From the human T2T-CHM13v2.0 reference genome, Homo sapiens: a DNA stretch of 64,000 nucleotides. Positions 2,368-25,272 of this stretch are shown here, one piece after another; within the stretch, counting starts at the first letter, position 1, and the number at the start of each line of letters is the position of its first letter. The notes under the pieces are model-generated. The model did no database searches, was not told where the DNA came from, and worked only from the letters and a program-made list of their open reading frames with translations. Position numbers and translations under genes: made by a program. The stretch is taken from assembly GCF_009914755.1 (NCBI RefSeq), contig NC_060938.1; one strand, 5' to 3'.

Positions 2368-4160
2368 AGTTTAGAGAGGAAAATAAATAACCTGATGGAG
2401 CTGAAAAACACAACACAAGAACTTCATAATACAACCACAAGTATCAATAGCTGGATAGACCAAGGGAAGGAAGGAATTTCGGAGCTTGAAGACTATCTTG
2501 CTGAAATAAGACAGGCAGACAAGATTAGAGAAAAAAGAATGAAAAGGAATGAACAAAACCTCTGAGAACTATGGGATTATGTAAAAAGACCAAACCTACA
2601 ACTGATTGGGGTACCTGAAAGAGATGGGAGAATGGAACCAAGTTGGAAAACGTACATCAGGATATCATCCAGAACTTCCCCAACCTAGCAAGATAGGCCA
2701 ACATTCAAATTCAGGAAATCCAGAGAACCACAGTAAGATACTCCATGAGAAGAAAGGTCATCCCCAAGACACATAATCATCAGATTCTCCAAAGTAAAAA
2801 TGAAGGGAAAGTATTAAGGGCAGCCAGAGAAAAAGGCCAGGTTACCTATAAAGGGAAGCCCATCAGACTAACAGTGGACCTCTCAGCAGAAACCCTACAA
2901 GCCAGAAGAGATTGGGGGCCAATATTCAGTATCCTTAAAAGAAAGAATTTCCAACCCAGAATTTCATAACCAGCCAAACTAAACTTCGTAAAGTGAAGGA
3001 AAAATAAAATCCTTTTCAGAAAAACAAATACTGAGGGAATTTGTCACCACCAGGCCTGCCTTGCAGGAGCTCCTGAGAGAAGCACTAAATATGGAAAGAA
3101 AAAACCAATACCTGCCACTACAAACACACACTAAAGTACACAGACCAATGACGCTTCGAAGCAACTACATCAACAAGTCTGCAAAATAACCAGCTAGCAT
3201 CATGATGACAGGATCAAATTCACAAATATATTAACCTTAAATGTAAATGAGCTAAATGCCTCCAGTTGAAAGACACAGAATGGCAAGCTGGATAAAGAGT
3301 CAAGACCCATCAATGTGCTGTATTAAAGAGACCCATCTCATGTGCAAAGACACACATAGGCTCAAAATAAAGAGATGGAGGAAATTTTACCAAGCAAATA
3401 GCAGAGAAAACCAGGGGTTGCAATCCTAGTGTTAAAGTCTTACAAAACAGACATTAAACCAAAAAAAAAAAAAGATCAAAAAAGACAAGGGCATTACATA
3501 ACGGTAAAGGGCTCAATTCAACAAGAAGTGCTAACTATCCTAAATATACAGGAGGACCTAGATTCATAAAACAAGTTCTTAGAGACCTACAAAGAGACTT
3601 AGACTCCCACACAATAATAGTGGGAGGCTTTAATACTGCACTGTCAATATTAGATCACTGAGACAAAAAATTAACAAAGATATTCAGGACCCAAACTCAA
3701 CTCTGGATCAAGTGGACCTGACAGATATCTACAGAACTCTCCACCCAAAAACAACAGAATATATATTCTTCTTTGTGCCATATGGCACTTACTCCTAAAA
3801 AGATTGCATAATTGGAAGTAAAACACTCCTAACAAATGCCAAACAACTGAAATCAGAAGAAACAGTCTCTCAGACCACAGTGCAATAAAATTAGAACTCA
3901 AGGTTAAGAAACTCACTCAAAACCACACAACTACATGGAAATTAAGCAACCTGCCCCTGAATGACTCCTGGATAAATAACGAAATCAAGGCAGAAATCAA
4001 GAAGTTCTTTGAAACCAATGAGAATAAAGAGACATCATGCCAGAACCTCTGGGACGCAGCCAAAGCAGCGTTAAGAGGGCAAGTTATAGCACTAAATGCC
4101 CACATCAGAAAGTTAAAAGATCTCAAATTGACGTCCTAATATCAAAATTAAAAGAACTAG

Positions 4161-16700: not shown

Positions 16701-19220
16701 GTCTCTAAGGACTTGCTTTACGAATCTGGGTGCTCCTGTCTTGGGTGCATATATATTTAGAATAGTTAGCTCTTCCTGCTGCATTGATCCCTTTACCATT
16801 ATATAATGGCCTTCTTTGTCTCTTTTGATCTTTGTTGGTTTAAAGTCTGTTTTATGAGAGATTAGGATGGCAACCCCTGCTTTTTTTTTTTTTTTTGCTT
16901 TCCATTTGATTGTTAGATCTTCCTCCATCCCTTTATTTTGAGCCTATGTGTGTCTTTGCACAGAGATGGGTCTCCTGAATACAGCACATTGATGGGGCTT
17001 GACTCTTTATCCAATTTGCCAGTCTGTGTCTTTTAATTGGGGCATTTAGCCTATTTACATTTAAGGTCCATATTGTTAGGTGTAGATTTGATCCTGTCAT
17101 TATGATGTTACCTGGTTATTTTACCTGTTAATTGATGCAGTTTCTTCATAGCATTGATGTTCTTTACAATTTGGCAGGTTTTTGCAGTGGCTGGTACCAG
17201 TTGTTCCTTTCCATGTTTAGTGCTTCCTTTAGGAACTCTTGTAACACAGGCCTGGTGGTGACAAAATCTCTGAGCATTTGCTTGTCTGTAAAGGACTTTA
17301 TTTCTCCTTCATTTATGTTGGCTGGATATGAAATTCTGGGTTGAAAATTCTTTTCTTTAAGAATGTTGAATATTGGCCCCCACTCTCTTCTGGATTGCAG
17401 GGTTTCTGCAGAGAGATCCGCAGTTAGTCTGATGGGCTTCCCTTTGTGGGTAACCTGACCTTTCTCTCTGGCTGCCCTTAACATTTTTTCCTTCATTTCA
17501 ACCTTGGTGAAATTGACAATTATGTGTCTTGGGGTTGTTTTTCTCGAGGAGTATCTTTGTGGTGTTCTCTGTATTCCCTGAAATTGAATGCTGGCCTGCC
17601 TTGCTAAGTTGGGAAAGTTCTCCTTGATAATGTCCTAAAGAGTGTTTTTCAACCTGGTTCCATTCTCCCTATCACTTTGAAGTACAACAATCAAATGTAG
17701 AATTTGTCTTTTCACATAGTCCCATATTTCTTGGAGGCTTTGTTCGTTTCTTTTTACTCTTTTTTTTCTAAACTTGCCTTCTCACTTTATTTCATTAATT
17801 TGATCTTCAATCACTGATATCCTTTCTTCCATTTGATCAAATTTGCTATTGAAGCTAGTGCATGCCTCCCGAAGTTCTCGTGCCTTGGTTTTCAGCTACA
17901 TCAGGTCACTTAAGGTCTTCTCTACACTGTTTATTCTCATTAGCCATTCGTCTAACCTTTTTTCAAGGTTTTTAGCTTCCTTGTGATGGGTTAGAACATG
18001 CTCCTTTAGCTCGGAGAAGTTTGTTATTACGGACCTTCTGAAGCCTACTTCTGTCAACTTGTCAAAGACATTCTCCATCTAGCTTTGTTCCATTGCTGGT
18101 GAGGAGCTGCGATCCTTTGGAGGAGAAAAGGCGCTCTGGTTTTTAGAATTTTCAGCTTTTCTGCTCTGGATTCTCACCATCTTTGTGGTTTTATCTACCT
18201 TTGGTCTTTGACGTTGGTGACCTACAGATGGGGTTTTGGTGTGGATGTCCTTTTTGTTGATGGTGATGCTATTCCTTTCTGTTTGTTAGTTTTCCTTCCA
18301 GGAGTCAGGTCGCTCAGCTGCAGATCTGTTGGAGTTTGCTGGAGGTCCACTCCAGACACTGTTTCCTTGGGTATCACCAGCAGAGGCTGCAGAACAGCAA
18401 ATATTGCATAACAGCAAATATTGCTGCCTGATGCTTCCTCTGGAAGCTTCATCCCAGAGGGACACCTGCCTGTATGAGGTGTCTGCTGGCCCCTACTAGG
18501 AGATGTCTTTCAGTTAGGCTACACAGGGGTCAGGGACTCACTTGATGATGCAGTCTGTCCATTCTCAGAGCTCAAACGACGTGCTGGTAGAACCACTGCT
18601 CTCTTCAGAGCTGTCAGACAGGGACGTTTAAGTCTGCAGAATTTTCTCCTGCCTTTTGTTCAGCTATGCCCTGCCCACAAAGGTGGAGTCTGTAGAGGCA
18701 GTAGGCCTTGCTGAGCTGTGGTGAGCTCCGCCCAGTTCAAGCTTCCTGGCCACTTTGTTTACCTACTCAAGCCTCAGCAATGGTGGATGCCCCTCCCCCC
18801 GCCAGGCTGCAGCCTGGCAGGTTGATCTCAGACTGCTGTGCTAGCAGTGAGCAAGGCTCCATGGGTTTGGGACCTGCCAAGCCAGGCATGGGAGAGAATC
18901 TCCTGGTCTGCCAGTTGCTAAGACTGTGGGAAAAGCACAGGATTTGGGCAGGAATGCCCCGTTTTTCGAGGTACAATCTGTCACGGCTTCCCTTGGCTAG
19001 GAAAGGGAAATCCCCCAACCCCTTGCACTTCCTGGGTGAGGTGACGCCCCGCCCTGCTTCGACTCGCCCTCCATGGGCTGCACCCACTGTCCAACCCATC
19101 CCAATGAGATGAACTGGGTACCTCAGTTGGAAATGCAGAAATCACCTGTCTTCTGCGTCGGTCATGCTGGGAGCTGCAGAATGGAGCTGTTCCTATTCGG
19201 CCATCTTGGAACAGAGTCCC
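13797..19220 (-). mobile_element. L1PA (about L1PA6-7) with an intact 5' UTR, broken ORF1/ORF2 and no 3' end
   Basis: 5' ttccaagatggccgaataggaacagctcc including the YY1 site; ORF1 pieces at 17164-18078; ORF2 EN and RT pieces at 14429-16928 including the FADD motif. Ends abruptly at 13797 with no 3' UTR or poly-A. Confidence 0.93.
18780..19112 (+). other. L1 ORF0-like antisense ORF, 110 codons, open
   Basis: MVDAPPPARLQPGRLISDCCASSEQGSMGLGPAKPG resembles the L1HS ORF0 N-terminus as recalled (MAGAPPPASLPPCSLISDCCAS); Kozak gcaATGG; expression unknown. Confidence 0.75.
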
Positions 19221-19736
19221 AGTGATATTCTTAAAGTTAGACAAATAGTTATGGTTACAACAACTGGAACCCGGGATCCTTAACTCCCAGTCTGGTGTTC
19301 ATTTCACTATAGCATACTGCATCTCAAATCAATGTAAACATTATTCTTATAAAGCAAGTGCCTAGACGTGTTTGCATGTATAAAGTGTTTTCTGTTTTTC
19401 TATTTTGACTACCGATGAATTTTCTATTTTCTCTGGTCTGTCTTTTAGCCTATTACTATTTTCAGCTCCTATCTGCAAGTGAGGATTTTAAGGAACAAGT
19501 ATTCCACTGATAGGCATTCCTGGCATAACTATGGATGATAACATTTGTAAGACTAACATTTATGATTCATTTTCTTTATTTGTAAAATGCATGACATGAA
19601 TAAATTACAACTTCACACTTGGTACAGTATCAACTTCTGTAAGGCAGATTAAAATATTCTGGCACCATTCCCTGAAATTCCCAATCTTTTTCTATATACA
19701 ATGGAAAAACTATGAGCTTTTTTTTAATAGAAAGGA

Positions 19737-20816
19737 TTTTGCTTTCTTGGGAATTTTATGTTAGATTATAAGCTGTAAGCTTTTTTATTTAAGATTACAT
19801 GATTAAAGACTTCAGTGTCTCTGACCTAGGTTCTCTGCTTTTCCACTTTAGCAGTTCTAGTCAAGGAAACTTTAAGTTTTGCTGTTGGAAGTAAGTTTGG
19901 AGCAGTGAAATATCTCTTTTAGAATACTGACCACAGCACAAAGGCACATGTTCCCGTCTCTGACTTCTAGCTAGTTAGCTGCCTGAGCATAGGCAGTTAT
20001 CTTAAGCTGAGATTGGCTTCCCTTTAGAAGAAATTCTGAAGCTCTTGATTCCAAGCAGTAGGAAGTCCTCACCAAGGTCATACTGGGAGTTCATTAACTC
20101 TTCCTGATGGTTCAGGGGCTGTTAGAGAATAAGGGAAAAGGAAATAAGGTATACTTAGAAGTAGCTTTGTCAAGACACTCTTTGGCTCTTTTACTTGCTC
20201 TACCTTTTACTAGCCAAATGACCCTGGACAAGCTACTTAACCTTTCTAGGTCTTATCTCCCTCCTATGCAAAATGGAAATAATGTCTACCCAATGTAGGG
20301 TTATTGTAGGATACTATTAAAGGAGATAATATTGTGTAAATAATTTTATTTTCGCTAACATGCTCTATTTGGAATTCAGCAACTGCTTCCCTTTCCTCTA
20401 CTCTCCTAACATGGGGATTCTAAGATCATAACCCTGAGATAAGCACTTGTAAATTACAGAGTATTTACAGTATGACCTTGGTGAGGACTTCCTACTGCTT
20501 GGAATCAAGAGCTTCAGAATTTCTTCTAAAGGGAAGCCAATCTCAGCTTAAGATAACTGCCTATGCTCAGGCAGCTAACTAGCTGGAAGTCAGAGACGGG
20601 AACATGTGCCTATGTGCCGTGGTCAGTATTCTAAAAGAGATACTTCACTGCTACAAACTTAGTTCCAACAGCAAAACTTAAAGGTTCCTTGACTAGAACT
20701 GCTAAAGTGGAAAAACAAAGAACCTAGGTCAAAGACACTGAAGTCTTTAATCATGTAATCTTAAATAAAAAAGCTTACAGCTTATAATCTAAAATAAAAT
20801 TCCCAAGACAGCAAAA
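19737..20816. repeat. Long inverted repeat: arms 19737-20085 and 20468-20816 (349 bp each), spacer 382 bp
   Basis: Manual alignment gives 12 mismatches and no indels; inner 117 bp are perfect. Confidence 0.97.
20190..20340 (+). mobile_element. MIR fragment inside the inverted-repeat spacer
   Basis: MIR core-like tgaccctggacaagctacttaacctttct...tgcaaaatggaaataat. Confidence 0.6.
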
Positions 20817-21389
20817 GCTAAAATTGGCTCAACTCCATTTGTTGGCCTGCATCTGGATCCTGTATGCATTTTGATGTAATCAAATTTTAATTCCACCCAC
20901 CCAGGTCATTCAGGAATATATCTCTGTCTCATTAGAAAATTTAATTAAGCAGCAGTTTTTATTTTATTTTTTATTTTTGCTCTTCTCTGATTGAGCTGTA
21001 CAAAATTGAAGCAAAGAATTGAGATACCTATTCAAATATTTCAAGTGAAAGCATATATTTTTATTATCCAAATCACTGCCTTAAGTTTCTACCTTCAGTC
21101 TAGTAAGGTCTTCACTTAGAATGATTCTACTTGCAAAGGGATGTTGGTCTGTGCTGGCATTTGCTGTCTATTTTTTAATTTTTCCATGAATGTGGCCTCT
21201 TAAACTCATTCATAATTCCCTTCAGGTATTCATATCTCTTTAGACTCATCATTCCATGAACTTCATTACACTGCTAAAATATGCACATCTCATTATATCC
21301 TTCTACTTCTGCATCTTATTATATCATTACCTTTATACTCCCTGCATTCTTCAAAATGTATATCTTAATCCCTCAATATATTTTTGTGA

Positions 21390-21484
21390 CATATATGTGT
21401 GTATATATATGTTTGTGTGTGTGTGTATATATATATACATTTTAAATATTTTTATATATATATATATACACACATATATATATA
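21390..21484. repeat. Mixed (TA)n/(TG)n/(CA)n low-complexity tract
   Basis: Seen directly. Confidence 0.85.
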
Positions 21485-21538
21485 AAATCACAACTTGTAA
21501 CTAATCATGGTATCTTCATATTCAAAAATTATATTACC

Positions 21539-21856
<318 letters not shown>

Positions 21857-22021
21857 TCAGCATTCTGTATATGTGCTTTCAGGTGCTTTTTCCCCCAGTA
21901 CTGTGGGTCCCACTTGTGTGCTTTTACCACCGTACTTATTAAGCCTTCTTGTTTAGGGGGGTTATTTTTATAGCTATGTAATTGAATAAAATTACCTATT
22001 CACACAGAAATCAGGCCTATA

Positions 22022-22785
22022 CCATCAGAGAAATGCAAATCAAAACTACAATGAGACACCATCTCACACCAGTTAGAATGCCAGTCATTAAAAAGTCAGG
22101 AAACAACAGGTGCTGGAGAGGATGTGAAGAAATAGGAACACTTTTACACTGTTGGTGGGACTGTAAACTAGTTCAACCATTGTGGAAGATAGTGTGGCAA
22201 TTCCTCAAGGATCTAGAACTAGAAATACCATTTGACCCAGCCATCCCATTACTGGGCATATACCCAAAGGATTATAAATGATGCTGCTATAAAGACTCAT
22301 GCACACGTATGTTGATTGCAGCACTATTCACAATAGCAAAGACTTGGAACCAACCCAAATGTCCATCAATGATAGACTGGATTAAGAAAATGTGACACAT
22401 ATACACCATGAAATACTATGCAGCCATAAAAAATGATGAGTTCATGTTCTTTGTAGGGACATGAATGAAGCTGGAAACCATCATTCTGAGCAAACTATCG
22501 CAAGGACAGAAAACCAAACACCGCATGTTCTCACTCATAGGTGGGAATTGAACAATGAGAACACTTGGACACAGGAAGGGGAATATCACACACTGGGGCC
22601 TGTTATGGGGTGGGGGGAGTGGGGAGGGATAACATTAGGAGATATACCTAATGTAAATGACGAGTTAATGGGTGCAGCACACCAACATGGCACATGTATA
22701 CATACATACCAAACCTGCACGTGGTGCACATGTACCCTGGAACTTAAAGTATAATAATAAAAAATTTAAATTTAAATTTAAAAAA
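22022..22785 (+). mobile_element. 5'-truncated L1PA 3' end
   Basis: ORF2 C-terminal cysteine-rich region plus 3' UTR; TSD aaatcaggcctata at 22008-22021 and 22786-22799. Confidence 0.92.
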
Positions 22786-25272
22786 AAATCAGGCCTATAA
22801 CCTTGGCCTAAATTGCCCTATGTCGCAATCAGGTAGACTGATCTTCCTTTTTCACACTTCCTTCTATGCATACCATTATATATGTTCCTATACATATTCA
22901 CTCTTAAAAAAAATAAAGTATATTATAAATAAAAAGTAAAGTAGGAAAATGAAATAGAAAATTGAAAAAAGCACATTACAAATATATCTCTTTAAGCAAT
23001 TTTAGTAGAAAACAATACTTAATCCAAAAAGGAAGGGGGGGTTAATTTTTCAATAGGATTTTTAAAGTTAATTTACACAGCTTTTATTGACTATACTTGT
23101 GGTTAAAATAAGGTACAGTCTTTAGATATGATTCTTAATATTTCCATTATTTATAGGTACCTCATTATGTTTTCACATTTTCTATATACATGTCTTATTT
23201 GCTGTAGTTTATCTTGCAATTTTTAAATTCTGTATCTATTTTGAAGTTCCTTAGTCTATAGAATTACATGAGGATTCAGAATGTATGCAGTGGAAAAAAA
23301 TGTTTTAAGTTAAAATGGAAAAAAATAGAAATTTTCTCAGAAGTAATGGCATAAAAATACCTTATTCCAGTAAAGAAGGATCTCCAATATTTTTAGAAAT
23401 TACAACTCATCCCTGTCTATTCCTAATGTTTTATTGGTGGAATTATGAAAATTAGTGAAAATTAAAAGAGAAAACCTTAGGTGACAGTAAAGGATTTGCC
23501 AGTACCAGCAGGGTTATTTTTTTAAGTTTGAGTGATTCACTTTCTCATTAGAGCACCTAGTGCTGCAAGAATTACCTTTTTGACTGTTTTCTCAAGTAAA
23601 GACTTTGCAACTCCTAGGAGACCATTAGCTCATCCCAAGCAGCAGAGGGTAAGTATCAGGGAAACCCAGTTCTTCCTTTTATTTAATTGTGAGACAAAAG
23701 CATAAGAAGAAAATCAGAGACACAAAGATTCTAATCAACAATACTCTTTCTTATGTGTCTGAATGTGTATAAGAATGTAACTTAGTTGCAATAATCTTTA
23801 ATACTTTAACTCAATTTTCCAAAAATGGAATTTATTGACTATTTTCTAAAATCTCGTTTTCAGTTTCTATAAACTCCTCTTCTGCAGAATCCCAGTCTCC
23901 TTGGTTAACTTCCTAAAAAAAAAAAAAATACAAACCATTAATGTCTTATCATTTGGATATAACAGTGAATGATTTGGTAATACTGTTGCAACCCTGTGAC
24001 TATAATGCCTTGCTAATTTCCTTACTTTCATTCTAGCAATATGGAAATAAGCCACCAGTATTTCTTCAAAGTCAGTATCATAGTTGGCATATTGGTATGT
24101 ATTTCTTCTTACATCCCATCTAGGAGCTTTGTTTCATCATGCATTTTATTTTATTTTTTATTTTATAAAATATTTCCTGCATATAAACTTTGTTTTTTTA
24201 ATTAATGGCCACAGTAATATTCTAACACAGGACCACTCTTTGTGGGAAAAAACTTAACAGTTATTTTTAGAATACTAAGATCCAGGGTTCAAAAAGAAAA
24301 GTACATGGTTCAAAATTATAGGACAGTGACTGAGAAATTACCATTAAAGAAGAATTTAAATTATTCAGACTACAGAGTGAACATTTTCTTTCTTTCTTTG
24401 CACAAAATCCTGACCAACAAATTCACCCATTGGACGTAAGTGCTACCCATTTATCAGTGATATCCTACTCATTTGACCAGGGTGTGGCAAGGTTTTCATC
24501 ATTAAGTACTGAAAAAAGTAGGCATTTGCTCTCAATTGAAGCATTTTCTGTGACCTCAAGGACATTTTAGATATTTTTAAAAATTATTCTTCCTAAAAAC
24601 GTACCCCTTTCATGTTAATTAAGTTAAATGCTTTTTATATTTACACAGTTATTTTAAAAGTTTAATGTTTTATACATAGAAATGAATATATGTAACACAG
24701 ATGGAAGTTGTAGTGATAAAATAAACATGAAACACCAACCCAACTTAATAACTAATTCATTACCAATTCTGTTGCATCTTTTTGTACCACTAAATCATGG
24801 CTTAATCATTTCTGGTAATCATAACATTTGTATTTATTCCAAACTCTATAACCTTACATAAAGCTTATTTTATTTTATGACATAAGAACTGTAATTGCCA
24901 GATAATGAGCATCTTTAGATGGAAAAAAGTGCACAACACAATAGCACTTTGAGAAAGCTATGTATTTTATAAGCATAGGAATTTTATTATTCCATTAACA
25001 CAACTTCTGGAGTAACTAGATTAATGAATGTACTGGTTTTCAACAAAGGAGATCTTAACCCTAAATGATTCAATCTTTTTCACTCTACGAATATATAAAG
25101 CCTGTAATACATAAGCAAGACCTGCAGTACACCAAAGTTTTGTCTAGTTGGTCTTTCAAATAAAGAGGTGAGGAATAAATTATACTGGAATAGACTTGAG
25201 GGCATCCACCATGTTAAATGTTTATTTTAGTATCTCATAAATAGCCGTGAAACTTTCCTTATGAATGTTATA

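What the first reader, a model, noticed from the sequence alone, without database searches (positions are those of the whole stretch)
19737..20816. Non-transposon 349-bp inverted repeat with an identity gradient: candidate flip-flop inversion cassette
Seen: arms 19737-20085 and 20468-20816 are reverse complements with 12 mismatches and no indels (96.6%). All mismatches lie in the outer 232 bp, and the 117 bp next to the spacer are perfect. The arms resemble no repeat family I recognise, there is no TSD, and the 382-bp spacer holds a much older MIR remnant. Inference: a local inverted duplication kept homogeneous by arm-to-arm gene conversion or recurrent inversion of the spacer, so spacer orientation may be polymorphic. 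GPHN is known for deeply divergent yin-yang haplotypes, and orientation could be tested against them.
Basis: partly seen in the sequence, partly recalled or inferred. Interest (0 to 1): 0.8.

Follow-up and report, generated by a model that had tools for sequence, protein, structure and literature searches.

The report
Old small inverted duplication in GPHN intron
A 349-base stretch of a gephyrin intron was copied in reverse 382 bases away millions of years ago, an ordinary kind of small rearrangement with no sign so far that its middle piece flips between people.

Summary
Arms 19737-20085 and 20468-20816 are reverse complements with 12 of 349 mismatches, no indels and sharp edges. The 117 bases next to the spacer are perfect.

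In the whole T2T-CHM13 assembly each arm matches only itself and the other arm. The spacer's core does find scattered old copies, which serves as a positive control. There is no target-site duplication and no junction homology of 4 nt or more. So this is a locus-specific inverted duplication, not a transposon and not an assembly artefact.

The "gradient" is really a step, and its support is modest: P = 0.007 as posed, 0.013 for either end, 0.026 by change-point permutation, 0.13 for a trend.

At 96.6% identity the arms are not being kept homogeneous, whereas palindromes under concerted evolution stay above 99%. A T2T-coordinate inversion call set from 41 genomes has no call here. It does contain a common 866-bp flip of an inverted Alu pair of the same geometry 1.7 Mb away.

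Best reading: an old, neutrally decaying replicative inverted duplication, with perhaps one later arm-to-arm copying event. Small inverted duplications are the commonest inversion-type variant in 1,019 long-read genomes. Interest is low.

The parts
19737..20085 (.). Left arm of the inverted repeat (349 nt)
   Evidence: reverse complement of 20468-20816 with 12 mismatches and no indels; its only other match in the assembly is the right arm.
19969..20085 (.). Inner 117 nt of the left arm, identical to its partner 20468-20584
   Evidence: innermost mismatch at 19968/20585; 117 nt is the longest perfect run; the next longest is 60.
20086..20467 (.). Unique 382-nt spacer
   Evidence: no similarity to the arms or to the rest of the window; one 63-aa ATG ORF at 20107-20298, taken as chance.
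20197..20348 (.). Old interspersed-repeat core inside the spacer (MIR-like; the name is recalled)
   Evidence: 7 scattered genomic matches at 75-90% identity; with 300-nt flanks added, 7 of 7 copies align only within 20197-20348 and none reaches an arm.
20468..20816 (.). [quoted passage not shown]
20468..20584 (.). Inner 117 nt of the right arm, identical to its partner 19969-20085

Best explanation
This is a locus-specific small inverted duplication in a GPHN intron. A 349-bp stretch of unique sequence was copied once, in reverse orientation, 382 bp from its source. The most likely cause is a replication error in which the growing strand switched to the opposite strand and back (fold-back, template switching or MMBIR). 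This happened in an ape or Old World primate ancestor, and the two copies have since drifted apart neutrally to 3.4% divergence. The perfect inner 117 bp is either chance or the trace of one later arm-to-arm copying event, such as a short conversion tract or a second template switch. The element has no shown function. Two consequences can be inferred. The GPHN pre-mRNA must carry a 349-bp near-perfect hairpin, a probable ADAR substrate. The arms could also occasionally mediate a flip of the spacer, but nothing shows that they do. Shown here: the structure, its uniqueness, the lack of transposon hallmarks, the divergence, and absence from one inversion call set. Inferred: the mechanism, the date, neutrality, and the RNA consequences.
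For: Structure and sharp edges. Each arm matches only itself and the other arm in the 3.1-Gb assembly even at E <= 10, while the same search finds 7 diverged copies of the spacer's repeat, which is a positive control. No TSD and no junction homology of 4 nt or more. PMC12350158 (passages read) reports that inverted duplications are the commonest class among 733 non-MEI inversion-type SVs (277 events, median 284 bp), that they rarely show breakpoint homology, and that the authors propose a replicative origin. JC distance is 0.035, and the 95% CI of mismatches (6.2-21) gives 1.8-6.0%, so no homogenising force is needed. The 12 differences show no strong/weak bias between the arms (5 against 5), and arm GC (38.7%) is close to spacer GC (36.9%), so there is no sign of GC-biased conversion. 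No inversion is called at the locus in 44 sample columns. The 12 mismatches rule out a read-chimera artefact, which would give identical arms (inference). The RNA fold gives one long hairpin at -709.7 kcal/mol with 337 Watson-Crick pairs, 1 G-U pair and 11 mismatches on the GPHN strand.
Against: The perfect inner 117 nt is unlikely under uniform decay: P = 0.0068 for the inner end, 0.013 for either end and 0.026 by change-point permutation. So at least one later copying event may have occurred, and the element may not be wholly inert. No outgroup or population sequence was available, so the date, which arm is the copy, and fixation are all untested. No microhomology was seen at the junctions, whereas most polymorphic inverted duplications show 1-15 bp; homology of 1-3 nt was not assessed here and could have decayed. 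Absence from one call set does not exclude a rare or missed flip.
Confidence: 0.62

Rival explanations
1. Active flip-flop cassette. The arms recombine repeatedly, which inverts the spacer and homogenises the arms, so orientation is polymorphic in humans or differs among apes.
For: The geometry allows it. A common 866-bp inversion at chr14:59,580,587-59,581,452 sits exactly on an inverted Alu pair with arms of about 300 bp, a spacer of about 300 bp and only 80-92% identity. By my count, 26 of 44 sample columns carry it, 12 of those flagged low confidence. The inner 117 nt are perfect. Large X palindromes show spacer inversion in about 50% of species comparisons (PMC8327919). Template switching between IR arms both homogenises arms and inverts spacers (PMC8604942).
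Against: There is no call at this locus among 18 chr14 rows in the same call set. Arm identity of 96.6% is far below the >99% of palindromes under concerted evolution. The longest perfect tract is 117 nt and the next is 60, which is short for homologous exchange (recalled: mammalian minimal processing segments are about 130-450 bp). The step is only modestly significant after correction.
Confidence: 0.13
2. Two-age palindrome that grew inward. An older inverted repeat with 232-bp arms was later lengthened by 117 bp into the spacer by one template-switch event, giving an old outer part and a young inner part.
For: The best change-point falls exactly at 232/117 with permutation P = 0.026. The outer part is at 5.2% divergence, against an upper 95% bound of 2.5% for the inner part. 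Template switching is reported to homogenise IR arms and expand their size in yeast (PMC13100816, abstract only).
Against: A single haplotype cannot tell this apart from a conversion tract or from chance. Published cases involve arms of tens of bases, not hundreds (PMC8604942). It would need an exact replacement of equal length, since there is no indel between the arms.
Confidence: 0.1
3. Selected hairpin RNA. The inverted repeat is kept because the 349-bp intronic duplex does something, such as recruiting ADAR, yielding small RNAs or influencing GPHN splicing.
For: It lies in a GPHN intron on the sense strand and folds into one long hairpin. Long inverted repeats can yield hairpin RNAs and siRNAs in other eukaryotes (PMC8728187).
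Against: No Rfam family matches the element at E <= 1. The arms have accumulated 11 pair-breaking differences and only 1 wobble on the sense strand, so there is no sign of compensatory maintenance. No expression or editing data were available.
Confidence: 0.05
4. Remnant of a DNA transposon or foldback element with long terminal inverted repeats.
For: It has inverted arms around an internal segment.
Against: The arms have no other copy in the genome, even at E <= 10, although the search does recover 75-90% copies of the spacer repeat. There is no TSD. 96.6% arm identity is too high for human DNA transposons, which I recall became extinct more than 35 Myr ago. The internal segment is unrelated sequence holding an older repeat.
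Confidence: 0.02
5. Assembly artefact of T2T-CHM13.
For: None found.
Against: The arms differ at 12 sites spread over 232 nt and are separated by 382 nt of unique sequence. A fold-back read chimera would give identical, abutting arms (inference). The region is ordinary euchromatin with no N.
Confidence: 0.01

Closest known systems
Small inverted duplications found as polymorphic structural variants in human long-read data (PMC12350158; passages read)
   Same: An inverted copy a few hundred bp long (median 284 bp there, 349 bp here) lies close to its source. There is no long breakpoint homology and no transposon hallmarks. The origin proposed there is replicative.
   Different: Those variants are segregating insertions. 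This one sits in the reference haplotype with 3.4% arm divergence, so it is probably millions of years old. Its population state was not tested. No microhomology of 4 nt or more is visible at its junctions.
Inversions bordered by inverted repeats, for example the 866-bp PAV inversion at T2T chr14:59,580,587-59,581,452 (PMC10150506 Table S1)
   Same: The geometry is almost identical, with arms of about 300 bp and a spacer of about 300 bp. That shows a cassette of this size can flip and that such a flip gets called.
   Different: The comparator's arms are Alu elements at 80-92% identity and both orientations are common. Here the arms are unique sequence at 96.6% and no second orientation is recorded.
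Large sex-chromosome palindromes under arm-to-arm gene conversion (PMC8327919, PMC3723533, PMC8600007)
   Same: Inverted arms surround a unique spacer.
   Different: Those arms are at least 8 kb long and 99-99.98% identical, often carry genes, and have conversion tracts up to kilobases. Here the arms are 349 bp, 96.6% identical, non-coding and autosomal.
Template-switch mutations that create, homogenise or extend inverted repeats (PMC8604942 passages; PMC5453318, PMC8794818 and PMC13100816 abstracts only)
   Same: The logic is the same for both the origin of the repeat and a later perfect inner tract: one arm is used as the template for the other.
   Different: The documented events involve arms of a few to some tens of bases and short spacers. 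This would be an unusually long event, 349 bp copied across a 382-bp gap.

Membership tests
DNA transposon / MITE / foldback element | Multiple related copies in the genome | tested here: not met
   2 of 2 matches are the two arms themselves, at E <= 10. The positive control recovered 7 diverged copies of the spacer repeat.
DNA transposon / MITE / foldback element | Target-site duplication flanking the element | tested here: not met
   no direct repeat of 4 nt or more at either arm, and only a chance 4-mer, offset from the edges, around the whole unit.
Palindrome under concerted evolution (sex-chromosome type) | Arm-to-arm identity of 99% or more, with arms of kilobases | tested here: not met
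   96.56% identity over 349 nt. The criteria come from PMC8327919.
Palindrome under concerted evolution (sex-chromosome type) | Arms cluster by species rather than by arm in orthologue trees | not testable with these tools
   No primate genomes are available; the genome search states that G000 has no relatives here.
Inverted-repeat-mediated polymorphic inversion (flip-flop) | Inverted repeats bracket the segment | tested here: met
Inverted-repeat-mediated polymorphic inversion (flip-flop) | Both orientations observed among haplotypes or species | tested here: inconclusive
   0 of 18 chr14 rows of PMC10150506 Table S1 fall at the locus (44 sample columns). The coordinate frame was checked against G000 with the 866-bp call. 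One call set cannot exclude rare or missed flips. The other catalogues were not readable.
Small inverted duplication (replicative structural variant class) | An inverted copy of adjacent unique sequence, hundreds of bp long, without long breakpoint homology | tested here: met
   The class is described in PMC12350158.
Small inverted duplication (replicative structural variant class) | An ancestral state lacking one arm, in an outgroup or other haplotypes | not testable with these tools
   No outgroup or pangenome sequence is on hand.
Long-inverted-repeat hairpin-RNA locus (LIRBase definition) | Both arms longer than 400 nt | tested here: not met
   The arms are 349 nt. The threshold comes from PMC8728187.
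Long-inverted-repeat hairpin-RNA locus (LIRBase definition) | Transcribed hairpin that yields small RNAs or edited RNA | not testable with these tools
   Only the fold is available. No expression data were available.

The most novel reading that the evidence does not exclude
The sharp 232/117 step marks a recent arm-to-arm copying event. On that reading this 1.08-kb autosomal mini-palindrome is still exchanging sequence between its arms, by a short conversion tract or by template switching that also extends the arms inward. Its spacer would then have flipped at least once among apes, or would flip at low frequency in humans. It would be a tractable, unique-sequence model of how small palindromes are maintained and grow outside the sex chromosomes.
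Probability: 0.13. Interest if true: 0.45.

Novelty: new member of a known kind. Interest (0 to 1): 0.2.

Why it matters
As it stands it matters little. It is one more old small inverted duplication in a very long intron, with no shown effect on GPHN. It has some use as a clean example, because its arms are unique sequence rather than Alu or L1. That makes orientation, arm phylogeny and conversion tracts easy to read in ape and pangenome assemblies. It also predicts a 349-bp near-perfect intronic dsRNA in a gene expressed in neurons, which should show up as an A-to-I editing cluster. Nothing found here links it to the GPHN yin-yang haplotypes.

Tried and rejected

2. An Rfam scan of 18000-23000 at E <= 1 gave 9 matches, none inside 19737-20816. 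They were Alu/SRP hits and sub-threshold miRNA hits in a TG/TA microsatellite.

3. ORFs: there is only one 63-aa ATG ORF, in the spacer. I did not pursue it.

4. Which arm is the copy could not be resolved. No old repeat crosses any junction and there is no junction homology.

5. Base rate. In those 200 kb plus the 64-kb window (264 kb), this was the only local inverted pair of at least 100 nt, at least 90% identity and a spacer of 5 kb or less (1 of 1). That bounds the rate only weakly, at roughly fewer than 11 others per Mb.

6. Larger inversion catalogues. The HGSVC3 supplement (PMC12350169, cut when stored) gave no coordinate hit. The held supplement of PMC12350158 gave no chr14 hit, but its index of 31 tables lists no inversion table. 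Neither result says anything about the locus.

7. PMC11794170 lists GPHN as 'flanked', not 'overlapped', by repeat pairs. Its per-pair list is not in the held supplements.

8. Warburton 2004 (PMC524409) is not held. The dsRNAome preprint PMC11838218 does not mention GPHN in its main text.

9. Searches for this element in print gave 5, 8 and 5 papers: 'GPHN' + 'inverted repeat', 'GPHN' + 'palindrom', 'GPHN' + 'inverted duplication'. Judged from titles and abstract starts only, none concerns this structure.

Full report
**What is there.** The window holds an inverted repeat exactly as described. The arms are 19737-20085 and 20468-20816, each 349 nt, with 12 mismatches and no indels (96.56% identity). 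They are separated by 382 nt. The 60 nt outside the outer edges and the 60 nt inside the inner edges show no similarity, so all four boundaries are sharp. The 12 differences are 6 transitions and 6 transversions, one of them at a CpG. All lie in the outer 232 nt. The inner 117 nt (19969-20085 paired with 20468-20584) are identical, and the next longest perfect run is 60 nt.

**Not a repeat family and not an artefact.**
- Searched against the whole 3.1-Gb assembly that holds the window, the arm finds only itself and the other arm, at E <= 0.001 and again at E <= 10.
- The same search with the spacer recovers 7 scattered matches at 75-90% identity to spacer positions 112-198. The method can therefore see old interspersed repeats, and the arms are not one.
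- With 300-nt flanks added, 7 of 7 of those copies align only to window 20197-20348 and never reach an arm. I recall this core as MIR; no tool named it.
- There is no target-site duplication around either arm, and around the whole unit only a chance 4-mer offset from the edges. No junction homology of 4 nt or more was found.
- A read-chimera artefact would give identical, abutting arms. Twelve differences and a unique 382-nt spacer argue against that (inference).
- No Rfam family matches inside the element. The only ATG ORF of 40 aa or more is a 63-aa one in the spacer.

**The "identity gradient".** This is a step rather than a gradient, and its weight depends on the question asked.
- All 12 mismatches in the outer 232 nt: P = 0.0068.
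- A perfect run of 117 nt or more at either end: P = 0.013.
- A perfect run of 117 nt or more anywhere: P = 0.088.
- Best change-point over all splits, by permutation: P = 0.026, with the split at 232.
- A trend in mean position: P = 0.065 one-sided, 0.13 two-sided.

Because the pattern was noticed after the fact, I treat it as suggestive only. Outer divergence is 5.2% (JC 0.054), and the inner rate has a 95% upper bound of 2.5%.

**Age.** Arm-to-arm JC distance is 0.035, and the 95% interval of mismatches (6.2-21) corresponds to 1.8-6.0%. With recalled neutral rates of 0.5-1.0e-9 per site per year, and both arms diverging, this gives roughly 9-60 Myr, centred on 18-35 Myr. That points to a catarrhine or hominoid ancestor. 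The date is an inference and would be too young if conversion has occurred.

**Is it kept homogeneous?** No. Palindromes under arm-to-arm conversion are annotated at 99% identity or more on the X chromosome (PMC8327919) and exceed 99.9% on the Y (PMC3723533). Here the outer two thirds differ by 5.2%. The differences show no strong/weak asymmetry between the arms (5 against 5), and arm GC (38.7%) is close to spacer GC (36.9%). So there is no footprint of GC-biased conversion, although 12 sites carry little power.

**Does the spacer flip?** I could not look at other haplotypes directly.
- The one readable catalogue in T2T coordinates is Table S1 of PMC10150506. It covers 41 genomes (abstract) in 44 sample columns and combines PAV, Strand-seq and optical mapping. 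It lists 18 chr14 rows, none between 59.58 and 80.09 Mb.
- To check both the coordinate frame and the sensitivity, I fetched its 866-bp PAV call at chr14:59,580,587-59,581,452 from the same assembly.
- That call lands exactly on an inverted Alu pair at locus positions 2579-2881 and 3179-3480. The spacer is about 300 bp and the IR pieces are 124 nt at 92% and 179 nt at 80%.
- By my count, 26 of 44 sample columns carry the inverted allele, 12 of those flagged low confidence.
- So flip cassettes of this geometry exist, are known and get called, and this locus was not called. That lowers the odds of a common polymorphism but does not exclude a rare one.
- The HGSVC3 supplement and the 1,019-genome supplement held no usable inversion table.

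**Origin.**
- In 1,019 long-read genomes, inverted duplications were the commonest class among 733 non-MEI inversion-type variants: 277 events with a median length of 284 bp. They rarely showed breakpoint homology, and the authors propose a replicative origin (PMC12350158).
- The present element fits that class, old enough to have diverged by 3.4%.
- Template switching between the arms of an inverted repeat is also the documented route to arm homogenisation, spacer inversion and arm extension, but at a much smaller scale (PMC8604942 passages; abstracts of PMC13100816, PMC8794818 and PMC5453318). It is therefore the natural candidate for a later event over the inner 117 nt, if that step is real.

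**Consequences.** GPHN is transcribed from the + strand, so its pre-mRNA contains both arms. The 1,151-nt stretch folds into one long hairpin at -709.7 kcal/mol, with 337 Watson-Crick pairs, 1 G-U pair and 11 mismatches. From established knowledge of ADAR, such a duplex should be edited. As intronic RNA it should normally stay in the nucleus. None of this was tested. The 11 pair-breaking differences argue against selection for pairing.

**Yin-yang haplotypes.** The GPHN yin-yang pair is real: 284 variants over about 1 Mb (Climer 2015, as cited in PMC11153572). A 382-bp flip could not suppress recombination over that distance (inference). The call set shows no inversion of any size across the gene.

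**How common.**
- PMC11794170 counts 627,791 intrachromosomal inverted pairs of at least 200 bp and at least 80% identity in T2T-CHM13, 73% of them overlapping SINEs. It gives no figure for local pairs of unique sequence.
- In the 264 kb I could scan, this was the only local inverted pair of at least 100 nt, at least 90% identity and a spacer of 5 kb or less.
- Such elements are therefore not dense, but the sample is too small for a rate.
- Three full-text searches found no paper on this structure, judged from titles and abstract starts only.

**Verdict.** This is a real, locus-specific, old inverted duplication of a well-known kind. There is weak evidence for one later arm-to-arm copying event and no evidence of flipping. 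The decisive tests, ape orthologues and pangenome orientation, could not be run here.

Noticed in passing
L003:2579-3480 (G000 C14:59,580,578-59,581,479): The common 866-bp PAV inversion in PMC10150506 Table S1 coincides with an inverted Alu pair (arms of about 300 bp, a spacer of about 300 bp, 80-92% identity). It is a ready-made positive control for small flip cassettes.
   Followed up: partly
T2T chr14 59.58-80.09 Mb (includes the whole window): The 41-genome multi-platform call set lists no inversion of any size across GPHN and its surroundings. The 1-Mb yin-yang haplotypes are therefore not explained by any inversion called there.
   Followed up: partly
window 21376-21492: A TG/TA microsatellite gives many low-complexity palindromic pairs and sub-threshold Rfam hits to mir-297 and mir-466 (37.5 and 27.3 bits against gathering scores of 90 and 85). 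These are most likely a composition artefact.
   Followed up: no
window 21540-21819: Two adjacent sub-threshold Metazoa_SRP hits plus a mir-1268 hit match the two monomers of an Alu. This agrees with the masked stretch 21516-21871 in the hub's annotation.
   Followed up: no
L004 (G000 C14:5,527,000-5,533,000): The other sub-kilobase chr14 inversion call (874 bp, short arm) lies in a dense array of repeats of about 260 nt, which gives 853 inverted pairs in 6 kb. It is a very different context from the GPHN locus.
   Followed up: no
window 18736-19736 versus 20817-21816: The 1 kb to the left of the element, next to the RefSeq enhancers at 18383-19442, has 44% GC and 14 CpGs. The arms have 39% GC and the spacer 37%, with 1 CpG each. 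The element sits at the edge of a more GC-rich regulatory patch.
   Followed up: no
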